Positions 2,922-56,650 of a DNA stretch of 64,000 nt are shown here, one piece after another. Position numbers and translations under genes: made by a program. This stretch comes from Thermoanaerobaculia bacterium (GTDB lineage Bacteria; Acidobacteriota; Thermoanaerobaculia; Multivoradales; UBA5704): contig JBGAGQ010000012.1 in the NCBI GenBank assembly GCA_044226625.1, positions 1-64,000 of the forward strand, given 5' to 3'. Within the stretch, counting starts at the first letter, position 1. Each line of letters begins with the position of its first letter. The notes under the pieces are model-generated. The model saw only the letters and a program-made list of their open reading frames with translations, searched no databases and was not told the origin of the DNA.

Positions 2922-2939
2922 CCCCATCGCCGGTCCGGG

Positions 2940-3524: not shown

Positions 3525-3535
3525 GGGGCGAAGGG

Positions 3536-4882: not shown

Positions 4883-5448
4883 TCCCCGACGCCCGGTTCA
4901 AGATCGCGTTCATCGGGACCCACGGCGTCGGCAAGACCACGCTGTGCTTCGGGCTCGCCGCCCTGCTCAAGGCGCGCGATCTCTCGGTCGAAGTGGTCCA
5001 CGAGGTGGCTCGCCGCTGCCCGCTGCCTATCAACGAACAGACCTCCGTCGCCGCCCAGAGTTGGATCCTCCATTCGCAAATCGCCGAGGAGATCAGCGCC
5101 GCGGCCCGCTACCCGGTCGTGATTTGCGATCGCAGCGTGCTCGACAACTACGTCTATCTGCTCCTCGCGGCCGGGCGGCAGGACGCGCTCGAACCGTTGA
5201 TCGACATCTGGATGGGGGGCTACGACCTCCTGGTTCAGGTACCGATCGTCGCCTCTCCCTCCCCGGACGGAATCCGCTCCGCCAACCCCGCGTTTCAGAG
5301 CGCCGTCGACGAACGCCTAGACCGAGAGCTCGCGCGTCGCCGCCTTTTCGCCCTTCGGCTCGATCCGGACCACCGGCAAGGCTGGCTCGAGTCGGTGGAA
5401 CGCGAGGTCTCGGCGCGGCTTCGTCCGAGCCAGCTCCAATTGCTGTAG
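4879..5448 (+). CDS. AAA_28/NadR-like P-loop ATPase/kinase
   Basis: KIAFIGTHGVGKTT Walker A and ICDRSVLD; GTG start overlaps the upstream stop (GTGA). Confidence 0.8.
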   Translation: MIPDARFKIAFIGTHGVGKTTLCFGLAALLKARDLSVEVVHEVARRCPLPINEQTSVAAQSWILHSQIAEEISAAARYPVVICDRSVLDNYVYLLLAAGRQDALEPLIDIWMGGYDLLVQVPIVASPSPDGIRSANPAFQSAVDERLDRELARRRLFALRLDPDHRQGWLESVEREVSARLRPSQLQLL

Positions 5449-5485
5449 CTCCGGAGGTCCGCCGTTGGGCTAGACTTTCCGGACC

Positions 5486-6466
5486 GTGGCCCTCTCTCCC
5501 CTCCTCCTCCGACGTTGGGAGCTCTTCTCCCACTTCAACGATCCCCAGCTCGAGAACCTCGCCGAGCACGTCGACCGCGAACGCTTCGACGCCGGCGCGC
5601 CCGTCCTCAAAGAGGGCGAACCCTCCCTCGGCGCCTATCTGATCGAGCGCGGAGAGGTCGTCATCGAGCGCAACACGCCCTACGGCCGTTTCGAGCTCGC
5701 GCGCCTCGGGCCGGGGGAGATGTTCGGCGAAACCAGTTTCGTCGACGGCCAGGCTCGGTCGGGAAACGCTACGGCGGCCGCCGAGACCGCCCTCCTCACT
5801 TTTCACCCGGAGATCCTCGCCGGCGCGATGGAGGAGGATCCCAAGCTCAAGCTTTCGCTCCATTGGGCGTTCTGGAAGAGCCTGTCGCAGAAGCTGCGCG
5901 CCACGAACGACAAGCTGACGCGCTTCTTCTCGACCTCCGGCGCACCCGCGGCGACTCCGGCGGCCGTCGGGGCCGCGGCGACGGGGGACTTTCGGGTCGA
6001 CCTCGCCTCGAAGCGCAGATTGTTTCAGGAACAGAAGCTCTCGAACCTCGAGATCAACTTCCTCTCCACCCTATCGAAGGAAAAGAAGCTCGCCCCGAAC
6101 CAGGTGCTTTTCCGCGAGGGCGAGCCCGGCGACTCGATGTACGTCGTCCTCGAGGGGCGGATCATGATCAGCAAGTTCATCCCGGGCGCGGGAGAGGAGG
6201 CGCTCGCGTTCCTCGAGCGCGGCGACTATTTCGGCGAGATGGCGCTGATCGACCACCAACCCCGGTCGGCCGACGCCAAAGCGCACGAGGAAGAAGCGGT
6301 GGTCCTCGCCATCTCCCGCGAGGTGCTCGAAGGTCTCCTCGACATCCAGAAGATCTCGTCCCTGAATCTGCTCCGGATCCTGTGCAACCTTGCCGCGTCC
6401 CGGCTGCGCGAGATCGACGACAAGATCATCGGCTGGTTCATCCTGTCCGGCGGTTCCGGTCAGTAA
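5486..6466 (+). CDS. tandem cyclic-nucleotide-binding domain protein
   Basis: Two cNMP domains (FGETSF...RSG; FGEMAL...PRSA); no HTH seen. Confidence 0.85.
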   Translation: MALSPLLLRRWELFSHFNDPQLENLAEHVDRERFDAGAPVLKEGEPSLGAYLIERGEVVIERNTPYGRFELARLGPGEMFGETSFVDGQARSGNATAAAETALLTFHPEILAGAMEEDPKLKLSLHWAFWKSLSQKLRATNDKLTRFFSTSGAPAATPAAVGAAATGDFRVDLASKRRLFQEQKLSNLEINFLSTLSKEKKLAPNQVLFREGEPGDSMYVVLEGRIMISKFIPGAGEEALAFLERGDYFGEMALIDHQPRSADAKAHEEEAVVLAISREVLEGLLDIQKISSLNLLRILCNLAASRLREIDDKIIGWFILSGGSGQ

Positions 6467-7583
6467 CCCCAGCTTTCCTCGCGACCGACAGGATCTTTCC
6501 TACCAGAGACGAGGTCGCCAGGCTCTCGATCTCCTCCAGTCCGAACCAACCCGCCGCCGCGCCCTCCCGGACGGCGGATTCGATCTCCACCGTGCCGCGA
6601 TGGACGGTGACACGGAGGTCCCGGTAGGTAATGCCGTGACGGGCGCCGCCGATCCGCTCACCCACCGTCCATCGCCCTCCGTAACGTTCCCGGAGACCGG
6701 CCTCGAGCTCCTCCGTCCGTTCCACCCACGGCAGCTCCCATAGACCCGCGAGCAGCGAGCTCGTGTCCGGACGGCGGAACATCAGGACGTTTCCCTCGCC
6801 GTCCTCGACCACGAGCGCGACCAGCGAGATTTCTTCGCTCTTGGCGGCGCGCGCCGCTTTCGGATAACGCTCGGCGGCGCCCGCCGCGGCGGCTCGGCAA
6901 CCCGATACCAGAGGGCAAAGCAGACACCGCGGGTTCTTCGGCACACAGATCGTCGCGCCGAGCTCCATCATCGCCTGGTTCGAATCGCCGGCTCGGCCAG
7001 GGTCGAGAAGCTCCGTGGCCGCGACCAGGAGCCTGCGTCGTACCACCGCGCTCTTGACGTCCCCTTCCTCGGCGAGCCGTCGCGCGAGGACGCGCTCCAC
7101 GTTGCCGTCGAGCACCGGAACGGCGACCCCAAAACAGATGCTCGCGATCGCCGCCGCCGTATAGGCGCCTATTCCGGGCAGATCGAGCAGTCCCTCGACG
7201 GTGCGGGGAAAACCTCCGCGAGCGACCACACCCCGCGCGGCTTCGTGGAGCTGTCGCGCCCTCCGGTAGTACCCGAGACCGGACCAGGCGGCCAGCACCT
7301 CGTCGAGCGGTGCGGCCGCGAGCGCCTCGACTCCGGGAAACCGGTCGAGAAACGCTAGGTAATAGGGGATGACCGTCTCGACCCGTGTCTGTTGGAGCAT
7401 GATCTCCGAGATCCAGACGCGATAGGGATCTCGGTTCTGACGCCAGGGGAGATCGCGTCGATGCCGATCGAACCAGCCGATCAAGCTCGAGGCCTCGGGG
7501 GTCGGCCCCTTTTTCGCACCTCTCTTCGGATCCTCGATCGGACCAGGTCCTCGACCGCACATCGGGCCTTCATTGTCTCTCAC
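6438..7583 (-). CDS. mutY: A/G-specific adenine glycosylase
   Basis: WISEIMLQQT, GLGYYRRA, HhH LPGIGAYTA, VLDGNVERV, Fe-S Cys motif. Confidence 0.95.
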   Translation of the reverse strand: MRDNEGPMCGRGPGPIEDPKRGAKKGPTPEASSLIGWFDRHRRDLPWRQNRDPYRVWISEIMLQQTRVETVIPYYLAFLDRFPGVEALAAAPLDEVLAAWSGLGYYRRARQLHEAARGVVARGGFPRTVEGLLDLPGIGAYTAAAIASICFGVAVPVLDGNVERVLARRLAEEGDVKSAVVRRRLLVAATELLDPGRAGDSNQAMMELGATICVPKNPRCLLCPLVSGCRAAAAGAAERYPKAARAAKSEEISLVALVVEDGEGNVLMFRRPDTSSLLAGLWELPWVERTEELEAGLRERYGGRWTVGERIGGARHGITYRDLRVTVHRGTVEIESAVREGAAAGWFGLEEIESLATSSLVGKILSVARKAGVTDRNRRTG

Positions 7584-38211: not shown

Positions 38212-39924
38212 TCACGAGATCGGCCGGATGTCCGTCGGCACATCGGAGAGACGGCCGATCGCGGCGCGCAGCTCCGGGCTCGCCTTGCCGTACTTGTCGA
38301 GGAACGCCTTCGTCCCCTCATAGTCGCCCTCTCCCTGGAGGATGAGCAGATCGTGCAGCAGGTCGCGGATCGCGCCGGGGAACTTGTCCGAAACGGCGCG
38401 GAAGCGGCCGGCGGCGTCGACCTCGAGCGCGCCTTTCTCCTCGAGGTAGTTGAACTGGGCGACGACCCCCTGACCGTGCGCGTCGTCGACGCCGAAGCGG
38501 GCGGCGCGGAACAGGCCCGCGACGTAGGTCGGTTCGAGCGCCGTGCGGAGCGCGGCGGGCATCTCTCCCTGCTCGATCAGGGCGAGGATGTCGTAGACGC
38601 CCATCACGTCCGCCTTCGCCTCTTCGACCGTGGAGAAAAGCTCCTTGAGCTCGAGGCGGACCTCCGTCTTCTGGCCGTTCTTGGTGATCGTGCCCGGGCC
38701 GAGGCCGTGCGAGAGCTCGTGGTGGAGCACCTCGTTCAGATAGGCGTCGAACGTGACGAGCGGCACCTGCGCCGGATCGAGCACGCGCTGCGCGATCGGC
38801 GTGAGGATCCGGTCGTACTTGGCGCGCATGAGGTTGCGCAGCAGCACCTTCTTCGAGCCCTTCGCCTCGCGCACCCGCTCGTCGTTGGGGAGGTTGAACG
38901 CGATCGCCGGCACGCCGGCCCGGGCGTCGCCCGCGACGCTCGCCACGTCCACCACGCGGATGGGGCTCTCCGTGCCGCGCTCGAAGTTCTTCATCGCGTC
39001 GGGGATCGGCAGATTGCGCTCGAGCCAGGGGAGCCGCTCCTTGAAGCGGGCGAGCGCCGCGGCCTCCGCCGGCAGGTTCACCGTCACGTACGACTCGAAA
39101 GAAGCCTTGTACCCGAACAGGTCGTCCTCGTAGGTCTCATAGGGACCGATCGTCACCTCGACCGGCGCATCGAGGTCCATCCAGTCGACGTCGCTCTGGA
39201 AATAGTCATCGGAGAGGAAAGCCGCCGCGCGCGAGCGGAGGAACTTCGAGAGCGTGGCGTTCTCGGTGAGGTCGGCCGCCTCGTTGAGGATCCGGGCCGC
39301 CGGCTCCAGCCACTCTCGGTACTCCTTGGAGTACGGGATCGCGACCAGGCGGTCACCCTGGCGCCGGATCACCGTGACGCCCGAGGTGAAGGCCTCTCGG
39401 TCCTCCGGATGCGCGGCGAGCCAGCGCTCGAGCTCCTCCTTCGTGAGGTCCTCGGGATAGAACCCGGCTCCCTTCGGATGGACCGAGTCGCCGAGGAACG
39501 CCTTACGCTCGTCGAGCCGGTCCCACGGTCCGAAGTTCACGGTGAAGAAGTCGCGGGCGGTCTGGGCTTTCGGGCCCTTCCAGCCGGCCATCTCGTCGCG
39601 CAGCGCCGGGCCGCCGGCCCACGCCTGGCGCAGGTAGATCTCGTCGATCAGGCGGGAGACCTCGCCGAGCTTTTCGAGCGCCTTGCGGTCGCGCTCGGAC
39701 AGGGCCGAGAGATCGGGGGTGAGCCGGACGGGGGAGTACTTCGCCAGCCGCTGGTCGATGTCGGGGATCACGCTTGCCTCCGAAAACCGTCCGGGAGCCG
39801 CCGCGCTCCGGGGCGCGGGCGCCGAAGCGCAGGCCGAGAGGAGGGCGACCGCCATGGCCCCCGAAAGAACGACGGCGGGAAAGGCCGCGAGCGGCCGGAA
39901 GTTCGAGGTCGTCGGTGCGTTCAT
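38212..39924 (-). CDS. M49 (dipeptidyl peptidase III-like) zinc peptidase, lipoprotein
   Basis: HELSHGLG, EEAKAD, NLPND; lipobox LSAC; AAGGAG RBS before ATG 39924. Confidence 0.82.
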   Translation of the reverse strand: MNAPTTSNFRPLAAFPAVVLSGAMAVALLSACASAPAPRSAAAPGRFSEASVIPDIDQRLAKYSPVRLTPDLSALSERDRKALEKLGEVSRLIDEIYLRQAWAGGPALRDEMAGWKGPKAQTARDFFTVNFGPWDRLDERKAFLGDSVHPKGAGFYPEDLTKEELERWLAAHPEDREAFTSGVTVIRRQGDRLVAIPYSKEYREWLEPAARILNEAADLTENATLSKFLRSRAAAFLSDDYFQSDVDWMDLDAPVEVTIGPYETYEDDLFGYKASFESYVTVNLPAEAAALARFKERLPWLERNLPIPDAMKNFERGTESPIRVVDVASVAGDARAGVPAIAFNLPNDERVREAKGSKKVLLRNLMRAKYDRILTPIAQRVLDPAQVPLVTFDAYLNEVLHHELSHGLGPGTITKNGQKTEVRLELKELFSTVEEAKADVMGVYDILALIEQGEMPAALRTALEPTYVAGLFRAARFGVDDAHGQGVVAQFNYLEEKGALEVDAAGRFRAVSDKFPGAIRDLLHDLLILQGEGDYEGTKAFLDKYGKASPELRAAIGRLSDVPTDIRPIS

Positions 39925-40209
39925 CGGAATCTCCTTCCCCTGCCGGGGTTGGAGCAAAGGATCTCACACCGCGCGGGCCCGGAGGCTCCCGGCCGCAGGA
40001 GAGCCTCGAGGAGCCGGCGAAGGTAGCGAAAATCTTTGCGCGAATCGAGCTGCTCGACTACCGGATGCCCAAGGGAAGCTCTTTCGCGCTTCCTTCGCAC
40101 CTTGTCATCGCGGATTGGGGGGGCTTAAGGCTCTTGAAAGCTAGAATCCGCGCAGAAGCTTGTCCCCGGGTCACCTTCGGCCCGGACCCCCTTCAAGGAG
40201 GAGCGCATC

Positions 40210-40410
40210 GTGCAGAGGAAGAATAAGAAGCTCAATCTCGGCCGAGAGACTCTCATCGCATTGGACTTGCATCAGATCGCGGGGGGGTTCGGCTCGGGCA
40301 CGGTCAACTGCACCACCTTGATCTCGACGGTTTGCACCAACACGTGCCCGAGTGATTGCCCGACGTGTTTCTCTGATGTGCCGGACTGGACCTGTTTTCC
40401 CCGAGGCTGA
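40210..40410 (+). CDS. putative RiPP (lanthipeptide-like) precursor peptide 1
   Basis: AAGGAGGAG RBS; leader KKLNLGRETLIAL...IAGG; core with 6 Cys and many Thr/Ser. Confidence 0.75.
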   Translation: MQRKNKKLNLGRETLIALDLHQIAGGFGSGTVNCTTLISTVCTNTCPSDCPTCFSDVPDWTCFPRG

Positions 40411-40473
40411 GCCCGTCTTCGGCCCGGCTCCGAGAACCGCTCGAGCCCCTCGAAGCCGGCTACCGGGTCGAGC

Positions 40474-41133
40474 TCAAACTCCCGGCCGAATCCAGGCGCG
40501 GGCGGCGAGCGCCAGGAACTCCCGCCCTTCGAGCAGCCGGGCTCGGTCGTCGCCGAGGTCCTCGAAGAGGAGGGCGATCGACAGCTCGTGGCCGGACTCC
40601 TCGAGCAGCGACTGCAGCGTGGGGGAAAGGTCGTCCGGGCCGTAGATCCAGGTCTCGACCGAGGCGATGTGAGGGGCGGTCACCGCCTCTCCGGCGACCC
40701 GGCGCGGCTCCAGGCGCTGGACCTCGCGTTGACTGTAGCGCAGCGCAGGGGGTGCCCCGAGGAGGACCAGCGCCTGGCCGCGCGGTGTGAGCGAGCCGCG
40801 GCGGTCTCCTCCCGCGTAGAGGTTGTCGGCCGCCGCCACCCGGTCGTTGAAGGTGATCAGGGCCGGGTTGCCGGGAACCGCGGGGTCGGGATCGCGGCGC
40901 TGCCAGAAGCGATCGATCGCCGCGAGCACCGCCCGGTCGTCGCGCAGGCGCCGGATCTCTCCGGCCTCGTCCGGGAGGAGGAGCCAGCGCGCCGGCCCCT
41001 CGGCCCAGGCGCGCGCGGCGCCGGCCGGGCTTCCGGCCGAGGCGCAGGCGAACAGGCCCACGAGCAGCAGGACCGCGTAGCCGCGTTTCGGCGCGATCGC
41101 CGCCACCGCAGAAAGGACGAGCGAGGCGTCCAT
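40474..41133 (-). CDS. GWxTD-domain protein (degenerate motif)
   Basis: FWQRRDPDP...NP...RV..A...GSLTPRG..L.LG.P pattern; N-terminal signal/lipobox-like segment. Confidence 0.7.
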   Translation of the reverse strand: MDASLVLSAVAAIAPKRGYAVLLLVGLFACASAGSPAGAARAWAEGPARWLLLPDEAGEIRRLRDDRAVLAAIDRFWQRRDPDPAVPGNPALITFNDRVAAADNLYAGGDRRGSLTPRGQALVLLGAPPALRYSQREVQRLEPRRVAGEAVTAPHIASVETWIYGPDDLSPTLQSLLEESGHELSIALLFEDLGDDRARLLEGREFLALAARAWIRPGV

Positions 41134-41137
41134 GGCC

Positions 41138-41419
41138 TCAGTGGACGTTGTCGTCCCCCTCCGGGCCGGGTGCCTCGGGGATCGGTCCGAAGGTCTGCTC
41201 GTAGCGTTCGAGGTTGGTCGCGAGCGCCCGGACGATGCGCTTGAGATGCCCCGGGCTGGTGATCACGCGGGCGGCGACGATCCCCTGCGGCGGCACCAGA
41301 TTGACGAAATCGAGGATGAACTCCTCTTGGGTGTGGAGGATGCGCAGCAGGTTCGAGTAGCGCCCCTTGAGCTCGTCGTCCTCGATCTTGATGTTGAGCG
41401 CTTCGTCGGTGGGCGGCAC
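41138..41419 (-). CDS. DUF3467-like small protein
   Basis: GRYSN...HTQEEFILDF...RVITSPGHLKR; AGGAGG RBS. Confidence 0.8.
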   Translation of the reverse strand: MPPTDEALNIKIEDDELKGRYSNLLRILHTQEEFILDFVNLVPPQGIVAARVITSPGHLKRIVRALATNLERYEQTFGPIPEAPGPEGDDNVH

Positions 41420-41536
41420 GGTTTCCTAGCCTCCTTAGAAGAGTGGGCGCGCGGCGGGCTGCTCCGCCGCGGCGCAGGGGCGGAGCCTGCCGGCCGAAAC
41501 CGGGCATCGCCGCAACCTCCGCTCGAGCTCTTTCGA

Positions 41537-42844
41537 TCAGTCTACACCCGCTCCCGGTCCCTCGTCGGCAGCCCAGGCGATCCCCCCCTCGAAGTCGAAT
41601 CGATGCTCGGGGAAGTACACCCCTTCGCCGCGCTCGCGGGAGGTGACCGTGAACCCGAGCACCTTGCGCCGGTAGTCGTAGGGAGCGCCGTCGCGGGCGT
41701 GGACGGCGACGTCGACCAGGTATTCGCCGGGCGCGAGACGAAGCGAGGGGCAGTGGATCCGCACCCGCCCCTCCCCTTCCAGCCGCTCCGGTCGCCAGCC
41801 GGCGAGGTCGGTATTCGTTCCCCAGCAGGCGATGCCGCGCGGGGTGGCGATTGCAATGCCGAAGACGAAATCCTCGAGCGGCCGGCCGGCTCGCACGACG
41901 ATCTCGAAGGTCGCCGGAGCGCCCGATTCGAGCAGGTGGCGCTCCTCGGCTTCGGCGCCCTCCCCGACGCGCAGCCGGACGGCGACGATCTCCGCCTCGC
42001 GCGAGCCCCAGCGCAGCGGCTCGGTTTCGCCTTCTCCGGTTTCCTCGGGGGCCTTCTCGCCCTGGGCGCGATGCTCCCCCTCCTCGCGCTCGGCGACCTC
42101 TTGCCGGTAGGCGTCGATCGCCCGCCGCGGGTTGCCCACCAGGCGCTGCTTGCCCCCTTCGAGCCAGAGCGCGCGGTCGCAGAGACCCGCGACCAGGTCG
42201 AGCGAGTGGGAGACGAAGAGGACCGTCTTGCCCTGGACCAGGAGCTCTTCGATGCGCCGCAGACAGCGGTGGGAAAACTGCTCGTCGCCGACCGCGAGCA
42301 CCTCGTCGACCAAGAGGATGTCGGGATCGGTGTGGATCGCCACCGAGAAGCCGAGCCGCACGTACATGCCGGAGGAGTAGTTCTTGACCGGCTCCGCCAT
42401 GAAATCGGCGAGCCCCGAGAACTCGACGATCTCGTCGTACCGGCGGTCGATCTCCTTCCGCGAAAGCCCGAGCACGGCGCCGTTGATGTAGACGTTCTCG
42501 CGCCCCGAGATTTCCGGGTGGAAACCCGCGCCGAGCTCGATCAACGCGGCGACCCGGCCGGCGACCTCGACGCGCCCGGAGGTCGGCCGGATCATCCCGG
42601 CGATCAGCTTGAGCAGCGTCGACTTGCCCGAGCCGTTGCCGCCGACCACGCCGAACGCCTCGCCCCGCCCGACCGTGAAATCGATCCCGTCGAGCGCCAC
42701 GATCGCCTCACCGCGCGTGAGATTCCGCGTCAGGCTGCGCTCGACGAGCGCGCTCTTCAAGGTCCGGAACTGGTCGCGGGGGGCGGTCCGCCGATAGAGC
42801 TTGACCAGCCCTTCGACCCGGATCGCGGGATCGGATCCGCTCAC
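41537..42844 (-). CDS. wzt: polysaccharide ABC transporter ATPase (Wzt) with C-terminal carbohydrate-binding domain
   Basis: GGNGSGKST, ELGAGFHPE, YSSGMYVRLGF, LVDEVLAVGD; GTG overlaps the wzm stop. Confidence 0.88.
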   Translation of the reverse strand: MSGSDPAIRVEGLVKLYRRTAPRDQFRTLKSALVERSLTRNLTRGEAIVALDGIDFTVGRGEAFGVVGGNGSGKSTLLKLIAGMIRPTSGRVEVAGRVAALIELGAGFHPEISGRENVYINGAVLGLSRKEIDRRYDEIVEFSGLADFMAEPVKNYSSGMYVRLGFSVAIHTDPDILLVDEVLAVGDEQFSHRCLRRIEELLVQGKTVLFVSHSLDLVAGLCDRALWLEGGKQRLVGNPRRAIDAYRQEVAEREEGEHRAQGEKAPEETGEGETEPLRWGSREAEIVAVRLRVGEGAEAEERHLLESGAPATFEIVVRAGRPLEDFVFGIAIATPRGIACWGTNTDLAGWRPERLEGEGRVRIHCPSLRLAPGEYLVDVAVHARDGAPYDYRRKVLGFTVTSRERGEGVYFPEHRFDFEGGIAWAADEGPGAGVD

Positions 42845-43644
42845 GCGGCCTCCACGAGCGTCTCGCGCAGACGGTCGAACAGCCATGCGCCGGCGCACCA
42901 GGCGAGCGCCGAGACGACGACCATGTGCAACCAGAGGGAGGGCTCCGGCATCCGGCCTTCGAAGATGGTCCGCTGGTAGGCGAGCGCGAACGGCGCGAAC
43001 GGATTCGCGCGGATCGCGAGCTGCACCTTGGGCAGCGCGACGAGCGCTTCGATTCGATAGAGGATCGGGGTGAGGAAGAACCCGAGCGCGAGCAGGTTCG
43101 TGAGCAGGTCGCGGACGTCCTTGAAATGGACGTTCAGCGCCGCGAGCCCGAGCGCGAGCCCGGCCACCAGCGGCACCTCGAGCAGGACCACCGCCGGAGC
43201 GAGGAGAGACGGCCACCCCCCGACCGGATGGCCGTAGGCGCGACCGACGAAGATCGCCCCGACGAGGATCGGCGTCGCGAGCAACAGATGGAACAGGTTC
43301 GAGAGGACCGCGACCGCGGGGAGCAGCTCAACGGGAAAAACCGCCTTCCTCAAGAGGCCGGAGTTGGCGGTGAGCGACACCGTTCCTTCGAGCAACGAGG
43401 TCGACAGCCAGATCCACGGAAAGAGGCCGCTCACCACGAACAGCGAATAAGGGTCGGCGCCGGAGACCCGGGGCCGGAAGATGACGGAAAAGACGAACGT
43501 GTAGACGCCGAGCAGGAGCAGCGGATTGGCCAGCGACCAGAGGTAGCCGAGCGCCGAGCCGCGATAGCGCGCCGCGAGCTCGCGGGTGGTGAGCGTCCAT
43601 AGCAGCGCGCGGAAACGGAAGATCTGGGCGGCGACCTGGAACAT
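42841..43644 (-). CDS. wzm: polysaccharide ABC transporter permease (Wzm)
   Basis: RYRGSALGYLWSL.NPLL, FFLTPILY, NPF. Confidence 0.88.
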   Translation of the reverse strand: MFQVAAQIFRFRALLWTLTTRELAARYRGSALGYLWSLANPLLLLGVYTFVFSVIFRPRVSGADPYSLFVVSGLFPWIWLSTSLLEGTVSLTANSGLLRKAVFPVELLPAVAVLSNLFHLLLATPILVGAIFVGRAYGHPVGGWPSLLAPAVVLLEVPLVAGLALGLAALNVHFKDVRDLLTNLLALGFFLTPILYRIEALVALPKVQLAIRANPFAPFALAYQRTIFEGRMPEPSLWLHMVVVSALAWCAGAWLFDRLRETLVEAA

Positions 43645-43740
43645 GGCGGAGGGCCGATCTTGTCACGAGAGTCCGCATGCCCTCGTTTCCCGCCGGGTTT
43701 GCCGAGCGGCCGGCGGCACCGGCCGCCGGCCGTTTCGACC

Positions 43741-43926
43741 TCAGCAAATGCAGGAGTTGAAGTCCGTGACGCGCGGCTGGCACTCCGCGAGGTACTTGGT
43801 GACGCAGCCCTGACAGACCGTGAACGAACAGCCGTTGGAGACGTTCGGCCCGGCGCCCGCGCCCGAGAGCGCTTCCGGATTCAGGTTCTGGAGGGTCTCG
43901 CGGTGGAGGGAGAGCTTCTTGCGCAT
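43741..43926 (-). CDS. putative RiPP (lanthipeptide-like) precursor peptide 2
   Basis: GAAGGA RBS; leader RKKLSLHRETLQNL; core with 6 Cys ending in SCIC. Confidence 0.75.
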   Translation of the reverse strand: MRKKLSLHRETLQNLNPEALSGAGAGPNVSNGCSFTVCQGCVTKYLAECQPRVTDFNSCIC

Positions 43927-44074
43927 GGTGGCATCCTTCGAGGGAAGTCCGCGGGCTTGAGCGACCGGGACTGGACTTGCCCTCTTAGGCGCAGCGCCCG
44001 AACCGTTTCCCTCACGCGCGGCGAAACGCGGCGAAATTCTCGAGCGAAGCGGCGGCGGTAGACTCGCGCCCTCG

Positions 44075-46345
44075 ATGGAATCGGTCCTCGTCCCCCTGCT
44101 CCCGGGCCTTTACATGGCGGCGCTCGCGGCCGTCTTACTGACCGCTTTGCGCCGATGGTGGGATCCCGTCCCTCTCGGCGTCGCGGCGGCGTTCGGCGTC
44201 GCGTTGCTCGCGCTGTTCGGCGGCGTGCTCTTCCGCGGCGAGATTCTCCTGCCGCTCGACAACCTGCGCGGAGAGGCGCCGTTTCGCGAGCTCGCCCCGA
44301 CCGTGCCACACGGCAACCTGATCCAGGGGGATCTGATCCAGCTCGTCGCGCCGAGCCAGGTGGAGGTCCGACGGGCGTTCGCGGAAGGTCGGTTGCCGTT
44401 CTGGAACGAACGGGTCGGAGCGGGCATGCCGCTGCTCGCCGATCCGCAGGCGCAGGTGCTCCAGCCGCTCGTGCTTCTCGCCCTGCCGTTCCCGCTCGGC
44501 GCCGCGGCCGGAGTGACGGCCGCGCTCCGCGTGCTGCTCGCGCTGGTCTTTACCTTCCTGTTCCTCCGGCGCGTGGGGCTCGGCTCGGGCGCGGCGCTCT
44601 GCGGCGCGTTCGGCTTCGGGCTCGGCGGCTTTGTCCTGCTCTGGCTCGGCTGGCCGATGGCGAGCTCGGCCGCCTGGCTGCCGGCGGTGCTCTACGCTTT
44701 GACCGTCCTGGCGCAACGGCAGGTCCGGCGCGACGCGTTCCTGCTCGGCTTCGCGCTGTTCGGACTGCTCCAGGCGGGTCACCCCGAAACGATCGCCTTC
44801 GCGCTCGTCTTCGCCGCGGCGTTCGCCCTGGTTCTCGCCCGTTCGCTCGCCGGCCGCTCGCGCCGCCCCTTCGGCACGCGCGCCGCCTGGGCGCTCGCGC
44901 TCGCCGTGGGGCTGGGCGCCCCGACGCTCCTGCCGGCGGCGCTCTACCTGCCGCACACGGCTCGCGCCGCGCGCGAGCAGGCCCGCCTCGCCGCGCTCGC
45001 CCCGTCCGGAGCGGCCGTCGTCGCGCGGACGATTCCGCTCTTCGCTCCGAACGCGCAGGGCAACAGCCGCTACCTCGACTATTGGGGGCCGAACAACACA
45101 AACGAGGACGCCTGCGCCTTCGCCGGCACGATCCTCCTGCTCGCCGCGCTCGTGGGGGCCGGGACCCTGCCCGGTGGACGCCGATCTGCTCGGGGCCGCG
45201 ATCTCGGAGGGGCCGCACGGGCGAGCCGCTTTCTCCTCGCCGCCGGAACGATCGCCGCCCTGGGCGCCGTGGGGCTAGGACGAACCCGGCTGCTCCTGAT
45301 CGCGGCCTTCGCCGTCGCCGCGCTCGGGGCGATCGCGATCGAGCGCTTCGCCCGCGGCGACGGCTCGCGCGCCGCGGCGCTCGGGCTCGGCCTCCTCCTC
45401 GCCGCGGGCCTCGCCTGGGCTTACCTCGCGCACCCCGACCCGGGCGATCCGGACCGCATGGCGGTCTTCCGGCTCGGCTGGCTCCGCTGGCAGCTCCGAT
45501 TCCTCGGCGCCGGCCTGGTGATCCTGATCGTCGCGCGGGGCCGACGGTTCCTGCCGTACCTGCTCGCGCCGCTCGTCGCCGCGGAGCTCTTCCTGATCCA
45601 CGCTCCGGCGAATCCGCCGATGCCCGCGCGCCTGCTCTTTCCGACTCCTCCGGCGATCCGGTTCCTCGAGGGCCACGTCCGGCCCGGGGAGCGGATCGCC
45701 GCGCTCGGCCGCGCGCTACCGCCGAACCTCGCGACGCTCTACGGGCTCTCGGACCTCCGCATCTACAACCCGGCGATGCCCGCGGCCTGGGAAAAGCTGG
45801 TCGCGCCGCTGGTCGACCGGCGCCTGGCACCGGGGCGCGGCGAGGTGCCGGCGTTTGGCCGGCCGCTCGATCCTCTCTATCCCCGTCTCGGCGTGCGCTT
45901 CCTGCTCACCGAGCCCGAGGCGACGCTGCCGCCGCCGCTCCGGCGGGTCTACTCGGACGGGGCGGCGCGGATCTGGGAGATCCCGGGCCCGTCGCCGCTC
46001 GCCTTCGCCGCCGGCCGCCCGGGACCGGAGGCGAGGCTCGGCATCGAGCGGCTCTCCCCCGCACATCTGCGTCTCCAGGTGCCTCCGGCGCTCCGCGGCA
46101 CGACCTGGCACCTCTCGACGGCCTTGTTCGACGACGGCGGTTGGCGCCTGCGGACCGACGACCGGGCCACGTCCACGGGCCACGAGCGGAACGCGCTCCT
46201 TTCAGCCGAGATCCCCGCCGGGACCGAGACGATCGAGATCGCCTACCGGCCGCCGGGGTTCGTCGCCGGCTGCCTGCTCGCGGCCCTCGCTGTCGGCGGG
46301 GCGATCCGCCGCGCCCGCGTGCCCGAACCGGTCGCTCGCGGCTAG
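44075..46345 (+). CDS. YfhO-like polytopic membrane protein (GT-C glycosyltransferase-like)
   Basis: LPFWNE...GMPLLAD.Q, AGHPET, many TM segments, C-terminal GW...G...I.Y.P domain. Confidence 0.78.
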   Translation: MESVLVPLLPGLYMAALAAVLLTALRRWWDPVPLGVAAAFGVALLALFGGVLFRGEILLPLDNLRGEAPFRELAPTVPHGNLIQGDLIQLVAPSQVEVRRAFAEGRLPFWNERVGAGMPLLADPQAQVLQPLVLLALPFPLGAAAGVTAALRVLLALVFTFLFLRRVGLGSGAALCGAFGFGLGGFVLLWLGWPMASSAAWLPAVLYALTVLAQRQVRRDAFLLGFALFGLLQAGHPETIAFALVFAAAFALVLARSLAGRSRRPFGTRAAWALALAVGLGAPTLLPAALYLPHTARAAREQARLAALAPSGAAVVARTIPLFAPNAQGNSRYLDYWGPNNTNEDACAFAGTILLLAALVGAGTLPGGRRSARGRDLGGAARASRFLLAAGTIAALGAVGLGRTRLLLIAAFAVAALGAIAIERFARGDGSRAAALGLGLLLAAGLAWAYLAHPDPGDPDRMAVFRLGWLRWQLRFLGAGLVILIVARGRRFLPYLLAPLVAAELFLIHAPANPPMPARLLFPTPPAIRFLEGHVRPGERIAALGRALPPNLATLYGLSDLRIYNPAMPAAWEKLVAPLVDRRLAPGRGEVPAFGRPLDPLYPRLGVRFLLTEPEATLPPPLRRVYSDGAARIWEIPGPSPLAFAAGRPGPEARLGIERLSPAHLRLQVPPALRGTTWHLSTALFDDGGWRLRTDDRATSTGHERNALLSAEIPAGTETIEIAYRPPGFVAGCLLAALAVGGAIRRARVPEPVARG

Positions 46346-46355
46346 AATCGCGACC

Positions 46356-46664
46356 ATGGCCGAGACGAAAAAGCTCTCCGTCCGCTGCCCCGATTGCGGC
46401 TCCGATCTGGTGGTCGACGCCGCGACCGGCGAGGTCCTCTCGCATCGCAAGCCGAAGGCGCCCCTCGGCGGCGGCCGCGATTTCGCCTCGCTGTTCCGCG
46501 AGCTCGACGAGAGCAAAGCGAAAGCGGAGACCCTGTTCGAGCGGGAGAAAGCGGCGTTCGAAGACCGCGACCGCCTGCTCGAAGAGAAGTTCCGCGAGGC
46601 GATGAAGCGCGCCGAGGAAGACCCGGATCAGGGACCTCCGAAGCGCCCGTTCGACCTCGACTAG
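46356..46664 (+). CDS. small zinc-ribbon protein
   Basis: VRCPDCG N-terminus, helical charged C-terminus ending PFDLD. Confidence 0.75.
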   Translation: MAETKKLSVRCPDCGSDLVVDAATGEVLSHRKPKAPLGGGRDFASLFRELDESKAKAETLFEREKAAFEDRDRLLEEKFREAMKRAEEDPDQGPPKRPFDLD

Positions 46665-46735
46665 CGCGTCTTTTGCGGCGGCGCGCACTCCCTTTCGGGG
46701 ACCAAACCCCACACGAAAGAGAAAGCGAGGCCCTA

Positions 46736-46885
46736 GTGAAGAAGCGCACTCCGCCCAAGCTCCTCCTCAACCGCGAAACGCTCAAGACCTTGACCGGCGA
46801 GAGCGCGAAGGACGGGCTCCAGGCCGTGGCCGGAGGCTTCACCTACTCCGACGTGCGCAACTGCAGCGTCTGCTACTGCGAGTAG
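46736..46885 (+). CDS. putative RiPP (lanthipeptide-like) precursor peptide 3 (49 aa)
   Basis: GTG after GCGAGG; VKKRTPPKLLLNRETLKTL...VAGG-FTYSDVRNCSVCYCE. Hidden at the end of the 46394..46885 ORF in the track. Confidence 0.7.
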   Translation: MKKRTPPKLLLNRETLKTLTGESAKDGLQAVAGGFTYSDVRNCSVCYCE

Positions 46886-46977
46886 TCGTCCCCCGGGAGG
46901 CGCGACCTCGGGCCGCCTCCCTTCTCTCCTTTCGATCCGCTTGCGAATCAAGGACTTGAGGTAAACTTCCACCCCGC

Positions 46978-48831
46978 GTGGCCCGCTCAAGGGCCCCCGC
47001 CGGACGCTTTTGGACCGCGCCCCCCGGTCGTCTGGGGATGCCTCGCGGCAGGGCGTCACGAGCGCGAAACGACCGCAGCATCCGAAATGCGCCTGGACGC
47101 GGTGCGACCGAGCAGAGAGCGCCCGCCAGCGAGCGCGTGAGAGAGGAGCCGAACTTGACCCCATGGTGGCTGCGCCCCACGGCCGAGGGCGCATCGAAGG
47201 AAGAAACGCCGCAAGAACCCGCATATACCGACAGGCCGAGCGAAACGCCCACCGAGGCTGCCGCTTCGAGCGAACTACCGAGCGTCGAACCGGCCGTCCA
47301 GGCGGCGGAGTGGACCAGCGCGCCGGTCGAAGAGACCCCGACCGCGGAATCGAGCGTCCCCGCTACGCCCCCCGCCGCCGAGATTCCCGCCTCGCCCCGG
47401 ATGGCCGTCCCCCCCGCCGAGCCCCCGCCGCCCGCGGCCCCCGCCGCCACCGGCTGGCGCTCGTGGCGGCAGCCCTCGGAAGAGGTCGCGCCGCCGGTCT
47501 CGTCGATCCTCGATCGCGAGCCGGAGCCCGCGCCGAGCTACTACGCCACCGAGAGATCGCCTTACCTCGAGCCGCCCGCGTCGAACGTGACGGCGAAGGA
47601 ACCCGCTGCGGAGGCCTCGGCCGCTCCCGTTGAGACGCCGGAGACCCTCGACGCCCTGGGTGTCCCTCCCCCCGCTCGCGGGGGGAGGCTAGGAGGGGGG
47701 CCAGAGCAAAACAACGCGGCCGAGCCGACCGAAATCACCGAGACCGGCGAGGTGATCGAGGCAGAGGTCGTCGAGATCTCCTCCGCGGCGGAGCCGGCCG
47801 GCGAAACGGAAGAAGCACGCGAAGGTCGCCGTCGCACCCGCCGCCGTGGCGGTCGCCGCCGCAACGGCCGCGCCGCCGCCGAGACCGCCCTTTCGGCGCA
47901 GCCCGAAGAGGACGAGGCCGAGGAGGACGAGGTCGAGGCGCCGATCGCCATCGCGCCGCCGGCCCGCCGCCCGCCGATCCAAGAAGACGCGGTCTTCCGG
48001 CGCCGCGAGGCGTTCGACTACGAAGCCGCGTTGCCGCCGCGCGAGATCGTGGTCACCGTCCCCGAGCGCCGGAGCGCCGACGAGCGGAAGATCGCCCTCT
48101 TCTGCGACCTGGAGAACGTCGCGCTCGGCGTGCGCGACTCCGACATCAAGAAGTTCGACATCGAGCTGGTGCTCGAGCGTCTGCTCGAGAAGGGCAAGAT
48201 CATCGTCAAGAAGGCCTACGCCGACTGGGAGCGCTACAGCGACTACAAGCGCCCGTTCCACGAGGCGGCGATCGAGCTGATCGACATCCCGCAGAAGCAC
48301 TACTCGGGCAAGAACAGCGCCGACATCAAGATGGTCGTCGACGCGATGGACCTCTCCTACTCGAAGGAGCACCTCGACACGTTCGTGCTCCTCTCGGGCG
48401 ACAGCGACTTCTCGCCGCTGGTCTCCAAGCTCAAGGAGAACAACAAGTACGTGATCGGGATCGGCGTGAAGAACTCCTCGTCGGCGCTGCTGATCGACAA
48501 CTGCGACGAGTTCATCTTCTACGAGGACGTCTGGCGCGACCAGCAGAAAGCGCCGCACGTGGTGGGCGTCAACAAGAAGAGCACCGAGGCGTTCAGCCTG
48601 ATGGTCGAGTCGATCCAGGCGCTCCTGCGCGAGAACAAGGACGTCCTCTGGGGCTCGATGATCAAGCAGACCATGCAGCGGAAGAAGCCGGCGTTCAACG
48701 AGGGGTACTACGGCTACAGCACCTTCTCCGAGCTTCTCGAAGACGCCGAGCGCAACAACGTGATCAAGCTCAAGAAGGACCAGCGCTCGGGCACTTACAT
48801 CGTGACCGGCTTCGCCGGCTCGAAGCGGTAG
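46978..48831 (+). CDS. NYN (LabA/DUF88) domain protein with OST-HTH and long disordered N-terminus
   Basis: ALFCDLEN, AYADW, GKNSADIKMVVDA, SGDSDFSPL, C-terminal YGYSTFSELLE. Start uncertain. Confidence 0.85.
   Translation: MARSRAPAGRFWTAPPGRLGMPRGRASRARNDRSIRNAPGRGATEQRAPASERVREEPNLTPWWLRPTAEGASKEETPQEPAYTDRPSETPTEAAASSELPSVEPAVQAAEWTSAPVEETPTAESSVPATPPAAEIPASPRMAVPPAEPPPPAAPAATGWRSWRQPSEEVAPPVSSILDREPEPAPSYYATERSPYLEPPASNVTAKEPAAEASAAPVETPETLDALGVPPPARGGRLGGGPEQNNAAEPTEITETGEVIEAEVVEISSAAEPAGETEEAREGRRRTRRRGGRRRNGRAAAETALSAQPEEDEAEEDEVEAPIAIAPPARRPPIQEDAVFRRREAFDYEAALPPREIVVTVPERRSADERKIALFCDLENVALGVRDSDIKKFDIELVLERLLEKGKIIVKKAYADWERYSDYKRPFHEAAIELIDIPQKHYSGKNSADIKMVVDAMDLSYSKEHLDTFVLLSGDSDFSPLVSKLKENNKYVIGIGVKNSSSALLIDNCDEFIFYEDVWRDQQKAPHVVGVNKKSTEAFSLMVESIQALLRENKDVLWGSMIKQTMQRKKPAFNEGYYGYSTFSELLEDAERNNVIKLKKDQRSGTYIVTGFAGSKR
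47662..47702. repeat. REP-like palindrome inside the NYN gene
   Basis: GTCCCTCCCCCCGCTCGCGGGGGGAGGCTAGGAGGGGGGCC, nearly identical to copies at 48969 and 56567. Confidence 0.8.
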
Positions 48832-48847: not shown

Positions 48848-49007
48848 CCCCTACCTCGATCCTCCCCCGCAAGCGGGGGAGGAAGCTCTTGTCCGTTCGG
48901 GCTTTTCACCGCCGGTCGGCGGAGAGTTCCTCCTCTTCTCCTGCCATCCACCGTCGGCCCGGCGAAGGGTCCCTCCCCCCGCTTGCGGGGGGAGGCCAGG
49001 AGGGGGG
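48848..49007. repeat. inverted pair of REP-like palindromes (REPIN/BIME-like)
   Basis: CCTCCCCCGCAAGCGGGGGAGG (48861-48882) and CCTCCCCCCGCTTGCGGGGGGAGG (48972-48995) between convergent genes. Confidence 0.85.
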
Positions 49008-49010
49008 CGG

Positions 49011-56447: not shown

Positions 56448-56650
56448 GTGCCGCCCCCCACCTCGGTCCTCCCCCGCAAGCGGGGGAGGAGGCCCGCCCG
56501 TCCCTGTTCACGTCTCTGTATCTCCGTCTCGCCCTCGCTCCAGTCCTCACATCCTCTCAGGAAGGCGTCCCTCCCCCCGCTTGCGGGGGGAGGACAGGAG
56601 GGGGGCCTCAGCCAACCACGTCGGCCGGCCCGTTGACGCAGGGGCGGAGC
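56448..56650. repeat. ~200-bp composite REP element, copy A
   Basis: Two opposed CCTCCCCCGC..GCGGGGGAGG palindromes with spacer and GGGGCGGAGC end; high-identity reverse complement of 57714-57916. Confidence 0.88.

What the first reader, a model, noticed from the sequence alone, without database searches (positions are those of the whole stretch)
40210..46885. Three dispersed orphan RiPP-precursor-like genes sharing a K-L-x-L-x-R-E-T-L-x-x-L leader
Seen: leaders KKLNLGRETLIAL (40210+), KKLSLHRETLQNL (43926-) and PKLLLNRETLKTL (46736+). Each has an RBS, a Gly-rich junction (IAGG, GAG, VAGG) and an unrelated Cys/Ser/Thr-rich core (6, 6 and 3 Cys). They sit singly between unrelated genes within 6.7 kb, and no LanB/C/M/KC, YcaO or C39 exporter is in the window. 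Established: conserved leader plus hypervariable core is RiPP logic, and prochlorosin precursors are scattered and processed in trans by one enzyme. Inference: a genome-wide combinatorial peptide library served by a distant maturase, or a family of disulfide/metal-binding peptides.
Basis: partly seen in the sequence, partly recalled or inferred. Interest (0 to 1): 0.82.

Follow-up and report, generated by a model that had tools for sequence, protein, structure and literature searches.

The report
Scattered lanthipeptide precursor gene library
The three small genes are real members of a family of 56 scattered genes in one acidobacterial genome that most likely encode precursors of ring-forming lanthipeptides matured by one distant, unlinked set of enzymes.

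Summary
All three ORFs exist as described: leaders, Gly-rich junctions and 6, 6 and 3 Cys.

They belong to a 56-member family on 33 contigs of this probably Thermoanaerobaculia genome. The strict leader motif occurs 37 times in the six-frame translation and 0 times in reversed translations.

The leader is the known LxLx[K/R]x5L/Gly-Gly type of class I lanthipeptides (Walker 2020). NCBIfam lant_leader_L1a matches 38 of 56 at E<=0.1, but only 6 pass its cut-off.

The genome has one full LanB, two LanC and one C39 ABC exporter, all unlinked. Elsewhere the same leader sits beside LanB and LanC. All 24 of 41 related genomes with the leader also have LanB.

In the cores, 99.1% of 323 Cys have Ser/Thr 2-7 residues N-terminal, against 73.9% in shuffles. 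The C-terminal side shows no excess, and Cys counts are odd in 31 of 56.

Orthologues keep their cores, but the repertoire turns over quickly between congeners.

Verdict: a class I, unclustered counterpart of prochlorosin-type libraries. Expression and chemistry are untested. Interest 0.62.

The parts
40210..40410 (+). Precursor gene 1 (66 aa). Leader is about residues 1-26 and ends in IAGG. The 40-aa core has 6 Cys and 12 Ser/Thr.
   Evidence: ORF and sequence. Leader HMM E 2.6e-10. Two orthologues at 76-78% identity keep 29 of 40 core positions invariant, against 13 of 26 leader positions.
40195..40203 (+). Ribosome-binding site AAGGAGGAG of gene 1.
   Evidence: Sequence. A family-wide conserved AAGGAG lies at -12 to -7.
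40000..40497 (.). Block of about 500 nt that carries gene 1. It is missing at the syntenic site in 6 of 7 congeners; borders are approximate.
   Evidence: Congeners have 28-302 nt between the flanking genes where G000 has about 660-774 nt, and no leader hit there. G005 could not be assessed. The block also holds an 84-nt piece 81% like C109:46416-46499.
43741..43926 (-). Precursor gene 2 (61 aa). The leader ends near the invariant A23-G24-A25. The core has 6 Cys and 6 Ser/Thr.
   Evidence: ORF. NF038153 gives 18.3 bits, below the cut-off of 22. Ten database relatives are 60-84% identical with all 6 Cys plus S34 and T36 invariant; one is named 'class I lanthipeptide' by NCBI. A syntenic orthologue lies in G007.
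43701..43739 (-). GC-rich hairpin just after the stop codon of gene 2; a likely transcript end.
   Evidence: strand folding: MFE -35.7 kcal/mol, z -2.64, and 1 of 200 shuffles folds as well. The consensus terminator scan did not list it.
46736..46885 (+). Precursor gene 3 (49 aa). The leader ends in VAGG. The 15-aa core has 3 Cys and 3 Ser/Thr.
   Evidence: ORF and sequence. Leader HMM E 1.1e-6. No relative was found in the protein database besides itself.
46665..46930 (+). Clean 266-nt block: 71 nt upstream, gene 3, then a hairpin and a U-rich tail. It is absent at the syntenic site in 6 of 7 congeners.
   Evidence: Congeners have 2-70 nt between the same conserved flanks. G005 could not be assessed. 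The hairpin is seen, but its energy is not exceptional (z 0.04).

Best explanation
The three genes encode class I lanthipeptide precursors (LanA). They belong to a 56-gene family scattered over the genome.

Proposed pathway:
1. Each gene is a small, probably monocistronic unit with its own ribosome-binding site.
2. The shared N-terminal leader (MKKxxxKLxLx[R/K]ETLxxL ... G-G/A) is recognised in trans by the single LanB dehydratase (contig C93). LanB glutamylates Ser/Thr in the core and eliminates the glutamate to give dehydro-residues.
3. One or both stand-alone LanC cyclases (C114 and C4) add Cys thiols to these residues, forming (methyl)lanthionine rings.
4. The single C39-peptidase ABC exporter, with its HlyD-like partner (C93), cuts after the Gly-Gly/Gly-Ala junction and exports the product.

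Shown here: the family, its leader type, the enzyme set, the co-occurrence and the core statistics. Inferred: transcription, trans-processing, ring formation, cleavage site and biological role.

The architecture works like the prochlorosin system (many unlinked precursors, one tolerant enzyme set), but it is built from class I enzymes.
For: 1. Family. 56 members lie on 33 contigs. Starts are 46 ATG, 8 GTG and 2 TTG. Junctions are GG in 32, GA in 23 and GR in 1. The strict motif gives 37 forward hits and 0 reversed. A conserved ribosome-binding site is present.

2. Leader type. It fits LxLx[K/R]x5L followed by GG. Walker et al. 2020 (passages read) describe this motif for class I LanAs and note that a C39 protease is often in the cluster. 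NCBIfam NF038153 lant_leader_L1a matches 38 of 56 at E<=0.1, best 5.8e-6. An orthologue of peptide 2 carries NCBI's name 'class I lanthipeptide'.

3. Enzymes in the genome. One LanB has both Lant_dehydr_N (572 bits) and Lant_dehydr_C (229 bits). Two LanC each carry the GxAHG, WCYG and CHG motifs; the assignment of these motifs to the NisC catalytic His and zinc ligands is recalled, not tested. One exporter combines C39, ABC membrane and ABC ATPase domains and follows a HlyD-like gene.

4. Association elsewhere. Of 80 loci around LanB homologues, 31 hold a leader-HMM hit in the flanks, and 28 of those also hold LanC. Examples are Kofleriaceae, Archangium, Paenibacillus, Bacillota and Acidobacteriaceae records. 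In G000 itself, three precursors lie directly upstream of the C4 LanC.

5. Co-occurrence. 24 of 41 related genomes have the leader, and all 24 have a PF04738 match. Of the 17 without the leader, 7 have a match (only 1 of them above 475 bits) and 10 have none. Related genomes are not independent samples.

6. Core logic.
- Ser/Thr count is at least the Cys count in 56 of 56 cores.
- 99.1% of 323 Cys have a Ser/Thr 2-7 residues N-terminal, against 73.9 +/- 2.6% in 1000 within-core shuffles; 0 shuffles reach the observed value.
- The C-terminal side shows no excess: 72.4% against 73.9%, reached by 740 of 1000 shuffles.
- Cys number is odd in 31 cores and even in 25.

7. Selection. Orthologues keep all Cys and the nearby Ser/Thr.

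8. Predicted complex of LanB residues 1-800 with the leader: weak support.
- Score 0.40; best of 3 controls 0.03.
- The mark was reached by 58 of 80 solved complexes and 2 of 110 mismatched pairs.
- At a score of 0.60 or under, only 7 of those 80 reached it, as did both mismatches that passed.
- The runs agree in at least 64% of contacts, and the partner's pLDDT is at least 48.
- My own alignments were used, so these counts hold only roughly.
- A NisB-leader complex is solved (4wd9 is listed), so the pass may come from memory.
Against: - No expression data: no RNA run is listed for this stretch.
- No chemistry of any kind.
- The three window peptides fail the curated NF038153 cut-off: peptide 2 scores 18.3 against 22 bits, and peptides 1 and 3 have no hit. 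Only 6 genes in the genome pass it, and 18 of 56 have no hit even at E<=0.1.
- 53 of 56 genes are not next to any maturase, so processing in trans is inferred only.
- One LanB and two LanC would have to accept 56 unrelated cores with 2-10 Cys. That breadth is shown for class II ProcM but not, to my knowledge, for a natural class I system.
- Cores with 17% Cys also resemble radical-SAM or disulfide peptides. A published classifier found such Cys-rich precursors ambiguous.
- One family gene (C17:5762) lies 172 nt downstream of a radical SAM/SPASM gene.
- The predicted complex gives only weak support.
Confidence: 0.72

Rival explanations
1. The peptides are unmodified, or only disulfide-bonded or metal-binding, double-glycine-leader peptides similar to class II bacteriocins or signals. 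The C39 ABC exporter cleaves and exports them, and LanB/LanC serve only the few precursors next to LanC.
For: - The GG/GA junction is present in 55 of 56, and one C39 exporter is in the genome.
- Cores are very Cys-rich: 17% Cys, 2-10 per core.
- 53 of 56 genes are unlinked to LanB or LanC.
- The exporter's best NCBIfam match is an NHLP-type bacteriocin exporter, at 623 bits against a cut-off of 853.
Against: - Cys number is odd in 31 of 56, so full disulfide pairing is impossible in most.
- The one-sided Ser/Thr excess N-terminal to Cys (99.1% against 73.9%; none on the C-terminal side) has no rationale for disulfides.
- The leader tracks LanB across genomes: 24 of 24 leader-positive genomes against 7 of 17 leader-negative ones.
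- The same leader sits in LanB-LanC clusters elsewhere.
Confidence: 0.14
2. The cores are modified by another maturase, such as a radical SAM/SPASM thioether-forming enzyme (ranthipeptide or sactipeptide type) or the YcaO-TfuA pair, rather than by LanB/LanC.
For: - 3 of 56 weakly match TIGR04149, an rSAM-modified GG-leader RiPP family.
- Four SPASM-domain genes are in the genome, one 172 nt upstream of family gene C17:5762.
- One YcaO with a TfuA-related neighbour lies on C5.
- A published note reports Cys-rich precursors misread between the rSAM and class I classes.
Against: - The C17 enzyme looks most like heme-synthesis AhbD/NirJ2 (290 bits, below the cut-off of 500) and carries a PCP_red domain.
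- Only 1 of 56 genes neighbours an rSAM gene.
- No neighbour family recurs: the largest cluster is 5 of 228 ORFs within 4 kb.
- The StsB-like rSAM on C31 has its own exporter and no family gene on its contig.
- No family gene lies on the YcaO contig C5.
- The Ser/Thr-Cys asymmetry points to lanthionine.
Confidence: 0.07
3. Most of the 56 ORFs are not expressed genes. They would be chance ORFs or decaying remnants of old lanthipeptide clusters.
For: There is no expression evidence. The genes turn over quickly between congeners. Several start with GTG or TTG.
Against: - The motif gives 37 forward hits and 0 reversed.
- The ribosome-binding site and the MKK start are conserved.
- Orthologue cores are under strong constraint, with all Cys invariant.
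- The family is kept at 17-57 copies in all 8 genomes of the genus.
Confidence: 0.03

Closest known systems
Class I lanthipeptide precursors with the LxLxKx5L / Gly-Gly leader. These are Bacteroidetes-type LanAs such as the pinensin family and Pedobacter lusitanus PedA peptides, modelled by NCBIfam NF038153 lant_leader_L1a.
   Same: - The leader motif and the Gly-Gly end are the same.
- A C39 protease/exporter is present.
- LanB and LanC are separate enzymes.
- Cores are rich in Ser/Thr and Cys.
Sources: Walker 2020 passages; a review passage on PedA15.2 and GG cleavage by LahT150; HMM matches.
   Different: - Here the genes are not in a cluster: 53 of 56 are away from LanB, LanC and the exporter.
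- There are 56 per genome.
- The host is Acidobacteriota (Thermoanaerobaculia by the nearest LanB records).
- Lys is mostly replaced by Arg in the motif.
- Only 6 of 56 pass the model's curated cut-off.
Prochlorosins: class II lanthipeptides of marine picocyanobacteria, with many scattered ProcA precursors and a single promiscuous ProcM.
   Same: The working logic matches. Dozens of unlinked precursors share one leader and have unrelated cores. One enzyme set serves them, repertoires are species-specific, and a GG leader is cut by a C39-type exporter. This comparison rests on recalled knowledge plus abstracts listed.
   Different: - The enzymes are class I (LanB plus LanC), not a fused LanM. 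PF13575 gave no hit, but its controls rang nowhere; the only two LANC_like hits are stand-alone proteins of 432-438 aa.
- The leader is not Nif11/NHLP type; no such family appeared.
- The host is a different phylum.
TIGR04149-type GG-leader, Cys-rich peptides of Bacteroidota modified by radical SAM/SPASM enzymes.
   Same: These peptides also have a KLxLxKE-like leader ending in GG and a Cys-rich core. 3 of 56 match weakly.
   Different: No recurrent rSAM neighbour exists: 1 of 56. The family tracks LanB instead.

Membership tests
Class I lanthipeptide precursor (LanA), LxLxKx5L/GG leader type | Leader motif L-x-L-x-[K/R]-x5-L near the N-terminus | tested here: met
   All three window peptides carry it. 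L8, L10, E13, T14 and L18 are invariant or at least 90% conserved in the 56-row alignment A2. The motif is as published.
Class I lanthipeptide precursor (LanA), LxLxKx5L/GG leader type | Score over the curated cut-off (22 bits) of NCBIfam NF038153 lant_leader_L1a | tested here: inconclusive
   Peptide 2 scores 18.3 bits, below the cut-off; peptides 1 and 3 have no hit. For the whole family, 38 of 56 match at E<=0.1, and 6 pass the cut-off in the genome search. A model cut-off is an annotation rule, not a biological definition.
Class I lanthipeptide precursor (LanA), LxLxKx5L/GG leader type | Double-glycine type leader end (G-G/A/S) for C39 cleavage | tested here: met
   The window peptides end in IAGG, an invariant AGA, and VAGG. 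By my junction rule the family has GG in 32, GA in 23 and GR in 1.
Class I lanthipeptide precursor (LanA), LxLxKx5L/GG leader type | Core with Ser/Thr and Cys placed so that (Me)Lan rings can form | tested here: met
   Ser/Thr count is at least the Cys count in 56 of 56. 99.1% of Cys have Ser/Thr 2-7 residues N-terminal, against 73.9% in shuffles (0 of 1000 reach it).
Class I lanthipeptide precursor (LanA), LxLxKx5L/GG leader type | LanB dehydratase and LanC cyclase encoded in the same genome | tested here: met
   One full-length LanB and two LanC are present.
Class I lanthipeptide precursor (LanA), LxLxKx5L/GG leader type | Precursor co-located with LanB/LanC in one gene cluster | tested here: not met
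   None is on the window's contig. Only 3 of 56 genes are within 1 kb of a LanC and none is near LanB. Of the 32 genes with at least 10 kb of sequence on both sides, 29 have no such enzyme there.
Class I lanthipeptide precursor (LanA), LxLxKx5L/GG leader type | Dehydrated residues and thioether rings in the mature product | not testable with these tools
   This needs mass spectrometry of expressed peptides.
Prochlorosin-type library (class II) | A LanM (ProcM-like) bifunctional synthetase | tested here: not met
   PF13575 gave no match in G000, though it rang in no control genome either. The only two LANC_like matches are stand-alone proteins of 432-438 aa.
Prochlorosin-type library (class II) | Nif11- or NHLP-type leader | tested here: not met
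   No Nif11 or NHLP family is among the NCBIfam matches of the 56 peptides.
Prochlorosin-type library (class II) | Many unlinked precursors with one shared leader and unrelated cores in one genome | tested here: met
   56 genes lie on 33 contigs. Paralogues share almost no nucleotide similarity and their cores do not align.
rSAM/SPASM-modified GG-leader peptides (TIGR04149) | Family HMM match and an adjacent radical SAM/SPASM maturase | tested here: not met
   3 of 56 match weakly. 1 of 56 has an rSAM neighbour, and that enzyme looks AhbD/NirJ2-like.

The most novel reading that the evidence does not exclude
A whole acidobacterial lineage runs a class I 'peptide library' system. One LanB, a few LanC and one exporter mature 17-57 unlinked precursors per genome. 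New precursors arise and vanish as self-contained 0.27-1.75 kb cassettes (gene plus own signals, once together with a LanC). These drop cleanly into intergenic DNA by a mechanism not yet described, giving each species its own repertoire. If so, the LanB/LanC pair would be the most substrate-tolerant natural class I machinery known.
Probability: 0.25. Interest if true: 0.85.

Novelty: new variant of a known kind. Interest (0 to 1): 0.62.

Why it matters
Cluster-based genome mining looks for precursors next to their enzymes. Here 53 of 56 would be missed, and only 6 of 56 pass the annotation model, so a large peptide repertoire stays invisible.

If one LanB and one or two LanC really process dozens of unrelated cores, they would be a natural, highly tolerant class I toolkit for making ring-constrained peptide libraries. 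So far that role is filled mainly by class II ProcM.

It would also show that the 'one enzyme set, many scattered substrates' strategy evolved independently in a soil or sludge-type phylum. That in turn raises the open question of what such libraries are for.

Tried and rejected
- **Expression.** The look-up of sequencing runs listed no RNA holder for window 39900-47100, so this says nothing either way. Laying contigs of four DNA runs gave only short fragments. Bins without cover over peptides 1 and 3 in three runs cannot be read as absence.
- **Pfam.** No family matches the three peptides or any of the 56 beyond chance. PF28317, shown as precomputed for a few database relatives, is not in the Pfam copy at hand.
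- **Rfam.** No match in 39500-48500.
- **Promoters and terminators.** The sigma-70 and terminator consensus scan gave 0 promoters and 1 terminator-like site, unrelated to the genes and fewer than in shuffles. Anchored alignment of upstream DNA shows no conserved promoter beyond the ribosome-binding site.
- **Recurrent neighbour gene.** Rejected: the largest blastp cluster is 5 of 228 neighbouring ORFs.
- **REP-like palindrome as a vehicle for the cassettes.** Rejected: 1 of 56 genes lies within 600 nt of a copy, against 0.5 expected.
- **Recent duplication as the source of copies.** Mostly rejected. Apart from overlapping flanks, only a few paralogue pairs share 71-85% nucleotide identity over 46-203 nt.
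- **Hairpin statistics for all 56.** Two scripts timed out, so only the three window genes were folded.
- **Bothwell et al. 2021 (Pedobacter PedA peptides).** Not held; known here only from a review passage.
- **Literature.** Searches found no paper describing a scattered class I precursor library in Acidobacteriota. Supplementary tables of Walker 2020 and of the 2024 and 2026 metagenome mining papers could not be seen and may list such precursors.

Full report
**1. Observation**

Peptide 1 is 40210-40410 (+, GTG, 66 aa). Peptide 2 is 43741-43926 (-, ATG, 61 aa). Peptide 3 is 46736-46885 (+, GTG, 49 aa). The leader strings, the Gly-rich junctions and the Cys counts of 6, 6 and 3 are correct.

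The neighbours are an M49 peptidase, a DUF3467 protein, a Wzt/Wzm-type ABC exporter, a YfhO-like membrane protein and an NYN-domain protein. None has a known role in peptide maturation.

The shared leader is far beyond chance. A strict form of the motif occurs 37 times in the genome's six-frame translation (12.07 million residues in open stretches of at least 30 aa) and 0 times in the reversed sequences. A loose form gives 63 against 25.

**2. The family**

I built an HMM from the 37 strict hits and searched all six-frame open stretches, which gave 81 rows at E<=10. I kept 56 genes:
- all hits with E<=0.01, except one at the start of a 602-aa frame on C8 that has no Gly junction or Cys-rich tail;
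- plus one hit on C9 (E 1.5) that carries the motif.

Two look-alike rows on C46 (E about 0.3) and the other weak rows were left out. An independent scoring with a model built from these same 56 also returns 56 matches at E<=0.01 in G000. That count is circular and only shows consistency.

Features of the 56 genes:
- They lie on 33 contigs.
- Starts are ATG in 46, GTG in 8 and TTG in 2.
- An AAGGAG-like site sits at -12 to -7.
- The leader ends in GG (32), GA (23) or GR (1).
- Cores are 15-57 aa (median 33.5) and hold 323 Cys in all.

Paralogue cores do not align. Outside overlapping flanks, only a few pairs share any nucleotide similarity.

No neighbouring gene family recurs: the largest cluster is 5 of 228 ORFs within 4 kb.

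**3. What the leader is**

The motif fits L-x-L-x-[K/R]-x5-L followed by a Gly-Gly end. Walker et al. 2020 (BMC Genomics, PMC7268733; passages read) describe this motif for class I LanAs of Bacteroidetes. They note that a C39 protease is often encoded in those clusters.

NCBIfam's leader model NF038153 (lant_leader_L1a, 'class I lanthipeptide') matches 38 of the 56 at E<=0.1, best 5.8e-6. Three match TIGR04149 weakly and three match NF038158. In a genome-wide search, only 6 genes pass the curated 22-bit cut-off and 14 reach E<=0.01. Peptide 2 scores 18.3 bits; peptides 1 and 3 have no hit.

One database orthologue of peptide 2 (72% identical) is already named 'class I lanthipeptide' by NCBI.

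**4. The enzymes**

The genome (97.9% complete, 133 contigs) holds the following:
- exactly one LanB, on C93 (1123 aa, with Lant_dehydr_N and Lant_dehydr_C);
- two stand-alone LanC, on C4 and C114;
- one C39-peptidase ABC exporter on C93, preceded by a HlyD-like gene.

LanB's nearest solved relatives are 9g04, MibB (5ehk) and NisB. Both LanC carry GxAHG, WCYG and CHG. That these are the catalytic His and zinc ligands of NisC is recalled, not tested.

LanB, the C114 LanC and the exporter stand among unrelated genes. Only the C4 LanC has precursors beside it, three in tandem. Of the 32 precursor genes with at least 10 kb of sequence on both sides, 29 have no LanB, LanC or exporter there.

Other candidate maturases:
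- One YcaO with a TfuA-related neighbour lies on C5.
- There are four SPASM-domain genes.
- One of these, AhbD/NirJ2-like, lies 172 nt upstream of a family gene on C17.
- Another, StsB-like and with its own exporter, lies on C31, a contig without a family member.

**5. Link between leader and LanB/LanC**

Around 80 LanB homologues from public genomes, 31 loci hold a leader-HMM hit in the flanks, and 28 of those also hold a LanC. Examples:
- four tandem precursors beside LanB and LanC in three Kofleriaceae records;
- about five in an Acidobacteriaceae record;
- single ones in Archangium, Paenibacillus and Bacillota records.

The nearest LanB relatives (75-85% identical, seven loci titled Thermoanaerobaculia, Holophagales or Acidobacteriota) have no LanC within the held flanks, as in G000. 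These titles suggest the window's organism is a Thermoanaerobaculia acidobacterium.

Among 41 related genomes, 24 have at least one leader match, and all 24 have a PF04738 (LanB) match. Of the 17 without the leader, 7 have a match (only G029 above 475 bits) and 10 have none.

All 8 genomes of the genus have exactly one LanB match, 2-4 LanC and 17-57 leader matches: 56, 39, 57, 33, 25, 17, 23 and 53. Related genomes are not independent, so this is a pattern, not a statistic.

In a phylum-wide sample, 12 of 251 genomes have the leader. One of the 12 positives is an unpublished genome, on which nothing else rests.

**6. The cores behave like lanthipeptide cores**

- Ser/Thr are at least as many as Cys in 56 of 56 cores.
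- Of 323 Cys, 99.1% have a Ser or Thr 2-7 residues to their N-terminal side. Within-core shuffles give 73.9 +/- 2.6%, and 0 of 1000 reach the observed value.
- The same window on the C-terminal side gives 72.4% against 73.9%, reached by 740 of 1000 shuffles.
- This one-sidedness matches the usual direction of lanthionine rings (dehydrated residue first, Cys later). It has no reason in disulfide or metal-binding peptides.
- Cys counts are odd in 31 cores and even in 25, which also argues against all-disulfide folds.

In peptide 2, each of the six Cys can be paired with one of six Ser/Thr lying 3-6 residues upstream. This is my reading of alignment A3.

**7. Selection and turnover**

Orthologues keep their cores:
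- Ten database relatives of peptide 2 (60-84% identical) keep all six Cys, S34 and T36.
- Two relatives of peptide 1 (76-78%) keep 29 of 40 core positions but only 13 of 26 leader positions.
- The C4 'A/B' peptides keep a CGPISVCIC tail across six genomes.

Yet the repertoire differs between species:
- Peptide 1 lies in a block of about 500 nt that is missing at the conserved syntenic site in 6 of 7 congeners (28-302 nt there instead; G005 could not be assessed). No orthologue was found in 91 other genomes of the family at E<=1e-10.
- Peptide 3 lies in a clean 266-nt block (46665-46930), replaced by 2-70 nt in 6 of 7 congeners. It has no relative in the protein database.
- Peptide 2 has a syntenic orthologue in G007. 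A nucleotide match covers the gene in G006, but I did not translate it. G004 has a different core at the same site. The gene is absent in G001, G002, G003 and G005.
- On C4, the third precursor plus LanC form an insertion of about 1.75 kb seen only in G000, with 35-91 nt in five congeners. G007 has a 65%-alike module elsewhere.

I checked ten G000 precursor genes at nucleotide level in the seven congeners. Four have no counterpart and six are patchy, present in 1-5 genomes. The flanking genes match at 70-89%. Short, fast-evolving genes can escape nucleotide searches, but the gap sizes for peptides 1 and 3 show true absence.

I found no border repeats and no link to the genome's REP-like palindrome. 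The way these small units are gained and lost is unexplained.

**8. Mechanism proposed**

The leader docks on LanB. LanB dehydrates Ser/Thr using glutamyl-tRNA, LanC closes the rings, and the C39 exporter removes the leader after GG/GA and exports the peptide.

A predicted complex of LanB residues 1-800 with the leader gave weak support only:
- The score was 0.40, and the best of 3 controls was 0.03.
- The mark was reached by 58 of 80 solved complexes and 2 of 110 mismatches.
- At a score of 0.60 or under, only 7 of those 80 reached it, as did both passing mismatches.
- The runs agree in at least 64% of contacts, and the partner's pLDDT is at least 48.
- My own alignments were used.
- A NisB-leader complex is solved, so memory may play a part.

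Transcription, trans-processing, ring topology and biological role are all inferred.

**9. Comparison and novelty**

As molecules, the three peptides are new members of a known kind: class I LanAs with the LxLxKx5L/GG leader.

As a system, this works like the prochlorosins (many scattered precursors, one enzyme set), but it fails that family's defining features. It has no LanM and no Nif11/NHLP leader. It also fails the usual class I feature of a gene cluster.

Eight full-text searches found no description of such a scattered class I library in Acidobacteriota. [quoted passage not shown] A 2026 coral study treats class II and class III clusters of Acidobacteriota.

I rate it a new variant of a known kind, with interest 0.62 and confidence 0.72 in the class I reading.

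Noticed in passing
window 47662-47702, 48969-49008, 56564-56627: A REP-like GC-rich palindrome of about 40 nt occurs in 59 copies (at least 28 nt matched) on 39 contigs of the genome. The first window copy lies inside the long ORF 46978-48831, so the NYN/OST-HTH gene probably starts downstream of it. The element shows no link to the precursor genes.
   Followed up: partly
window 40030-40113: Inside the block that carries peptide 1, an 84-nt piece is 81% identical to the 5' end of a small gene on C109:46416-46499. Similar pieces occur in three congeners at other loci. It looks like a gene fragment carried along with the insertion.
   Followed up: partly
L158 (G000:C4:53000-63000), about C4:58180-59932: The third tandem precursor plus the C4 LanC form an insertion of about 1.75 kb found only in G000. 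Five congeners have 35-91 nt at that site and keep only the one or two 'A/B' precursors. G007 has a 65%-alike precursor-LanC module on another contig.
   Followed up: partly
L147 (G004:C54), position about 3854 (-): At the exact syntenic site of peptide 2, G004 has a precursor with a similar leader but an unrelated core with 5 Cys.
   Followed up: no
L154 (G000:C31:26500-33500), 3388-6587: A StsB-like radical SAM/SPASM gene is followed by an ABC exporter, and one search gave a weak small-peptide hit upstream. This is a separate RiPP-like locus unrelated to the 56-gene family.
   Followed up: partly
L155 (G000:C5:22000-29500), 1593-4237 (-): A YcaO gene lies next to a TfuA-related gene, forming a thioamidation-type pair. 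No family precursor is on that contig.
   Followed up: no
G018:C13:217907-219915; G022:C3:1392860-1394854: In two relatives rich in leader genes (55 and 27 matches), the LanB match is split. G018 has two frames. G022 has several pieces of at most 105 bits. This may be a frameshift, an assembly error or decay.
   Followed up: no
G217 and G322 (phylum sample): A second acidobacterial family, with small genomes of 3.5-3.8 Mb, also carries many leader matches: 17 and at least 27.
   Followed up: no
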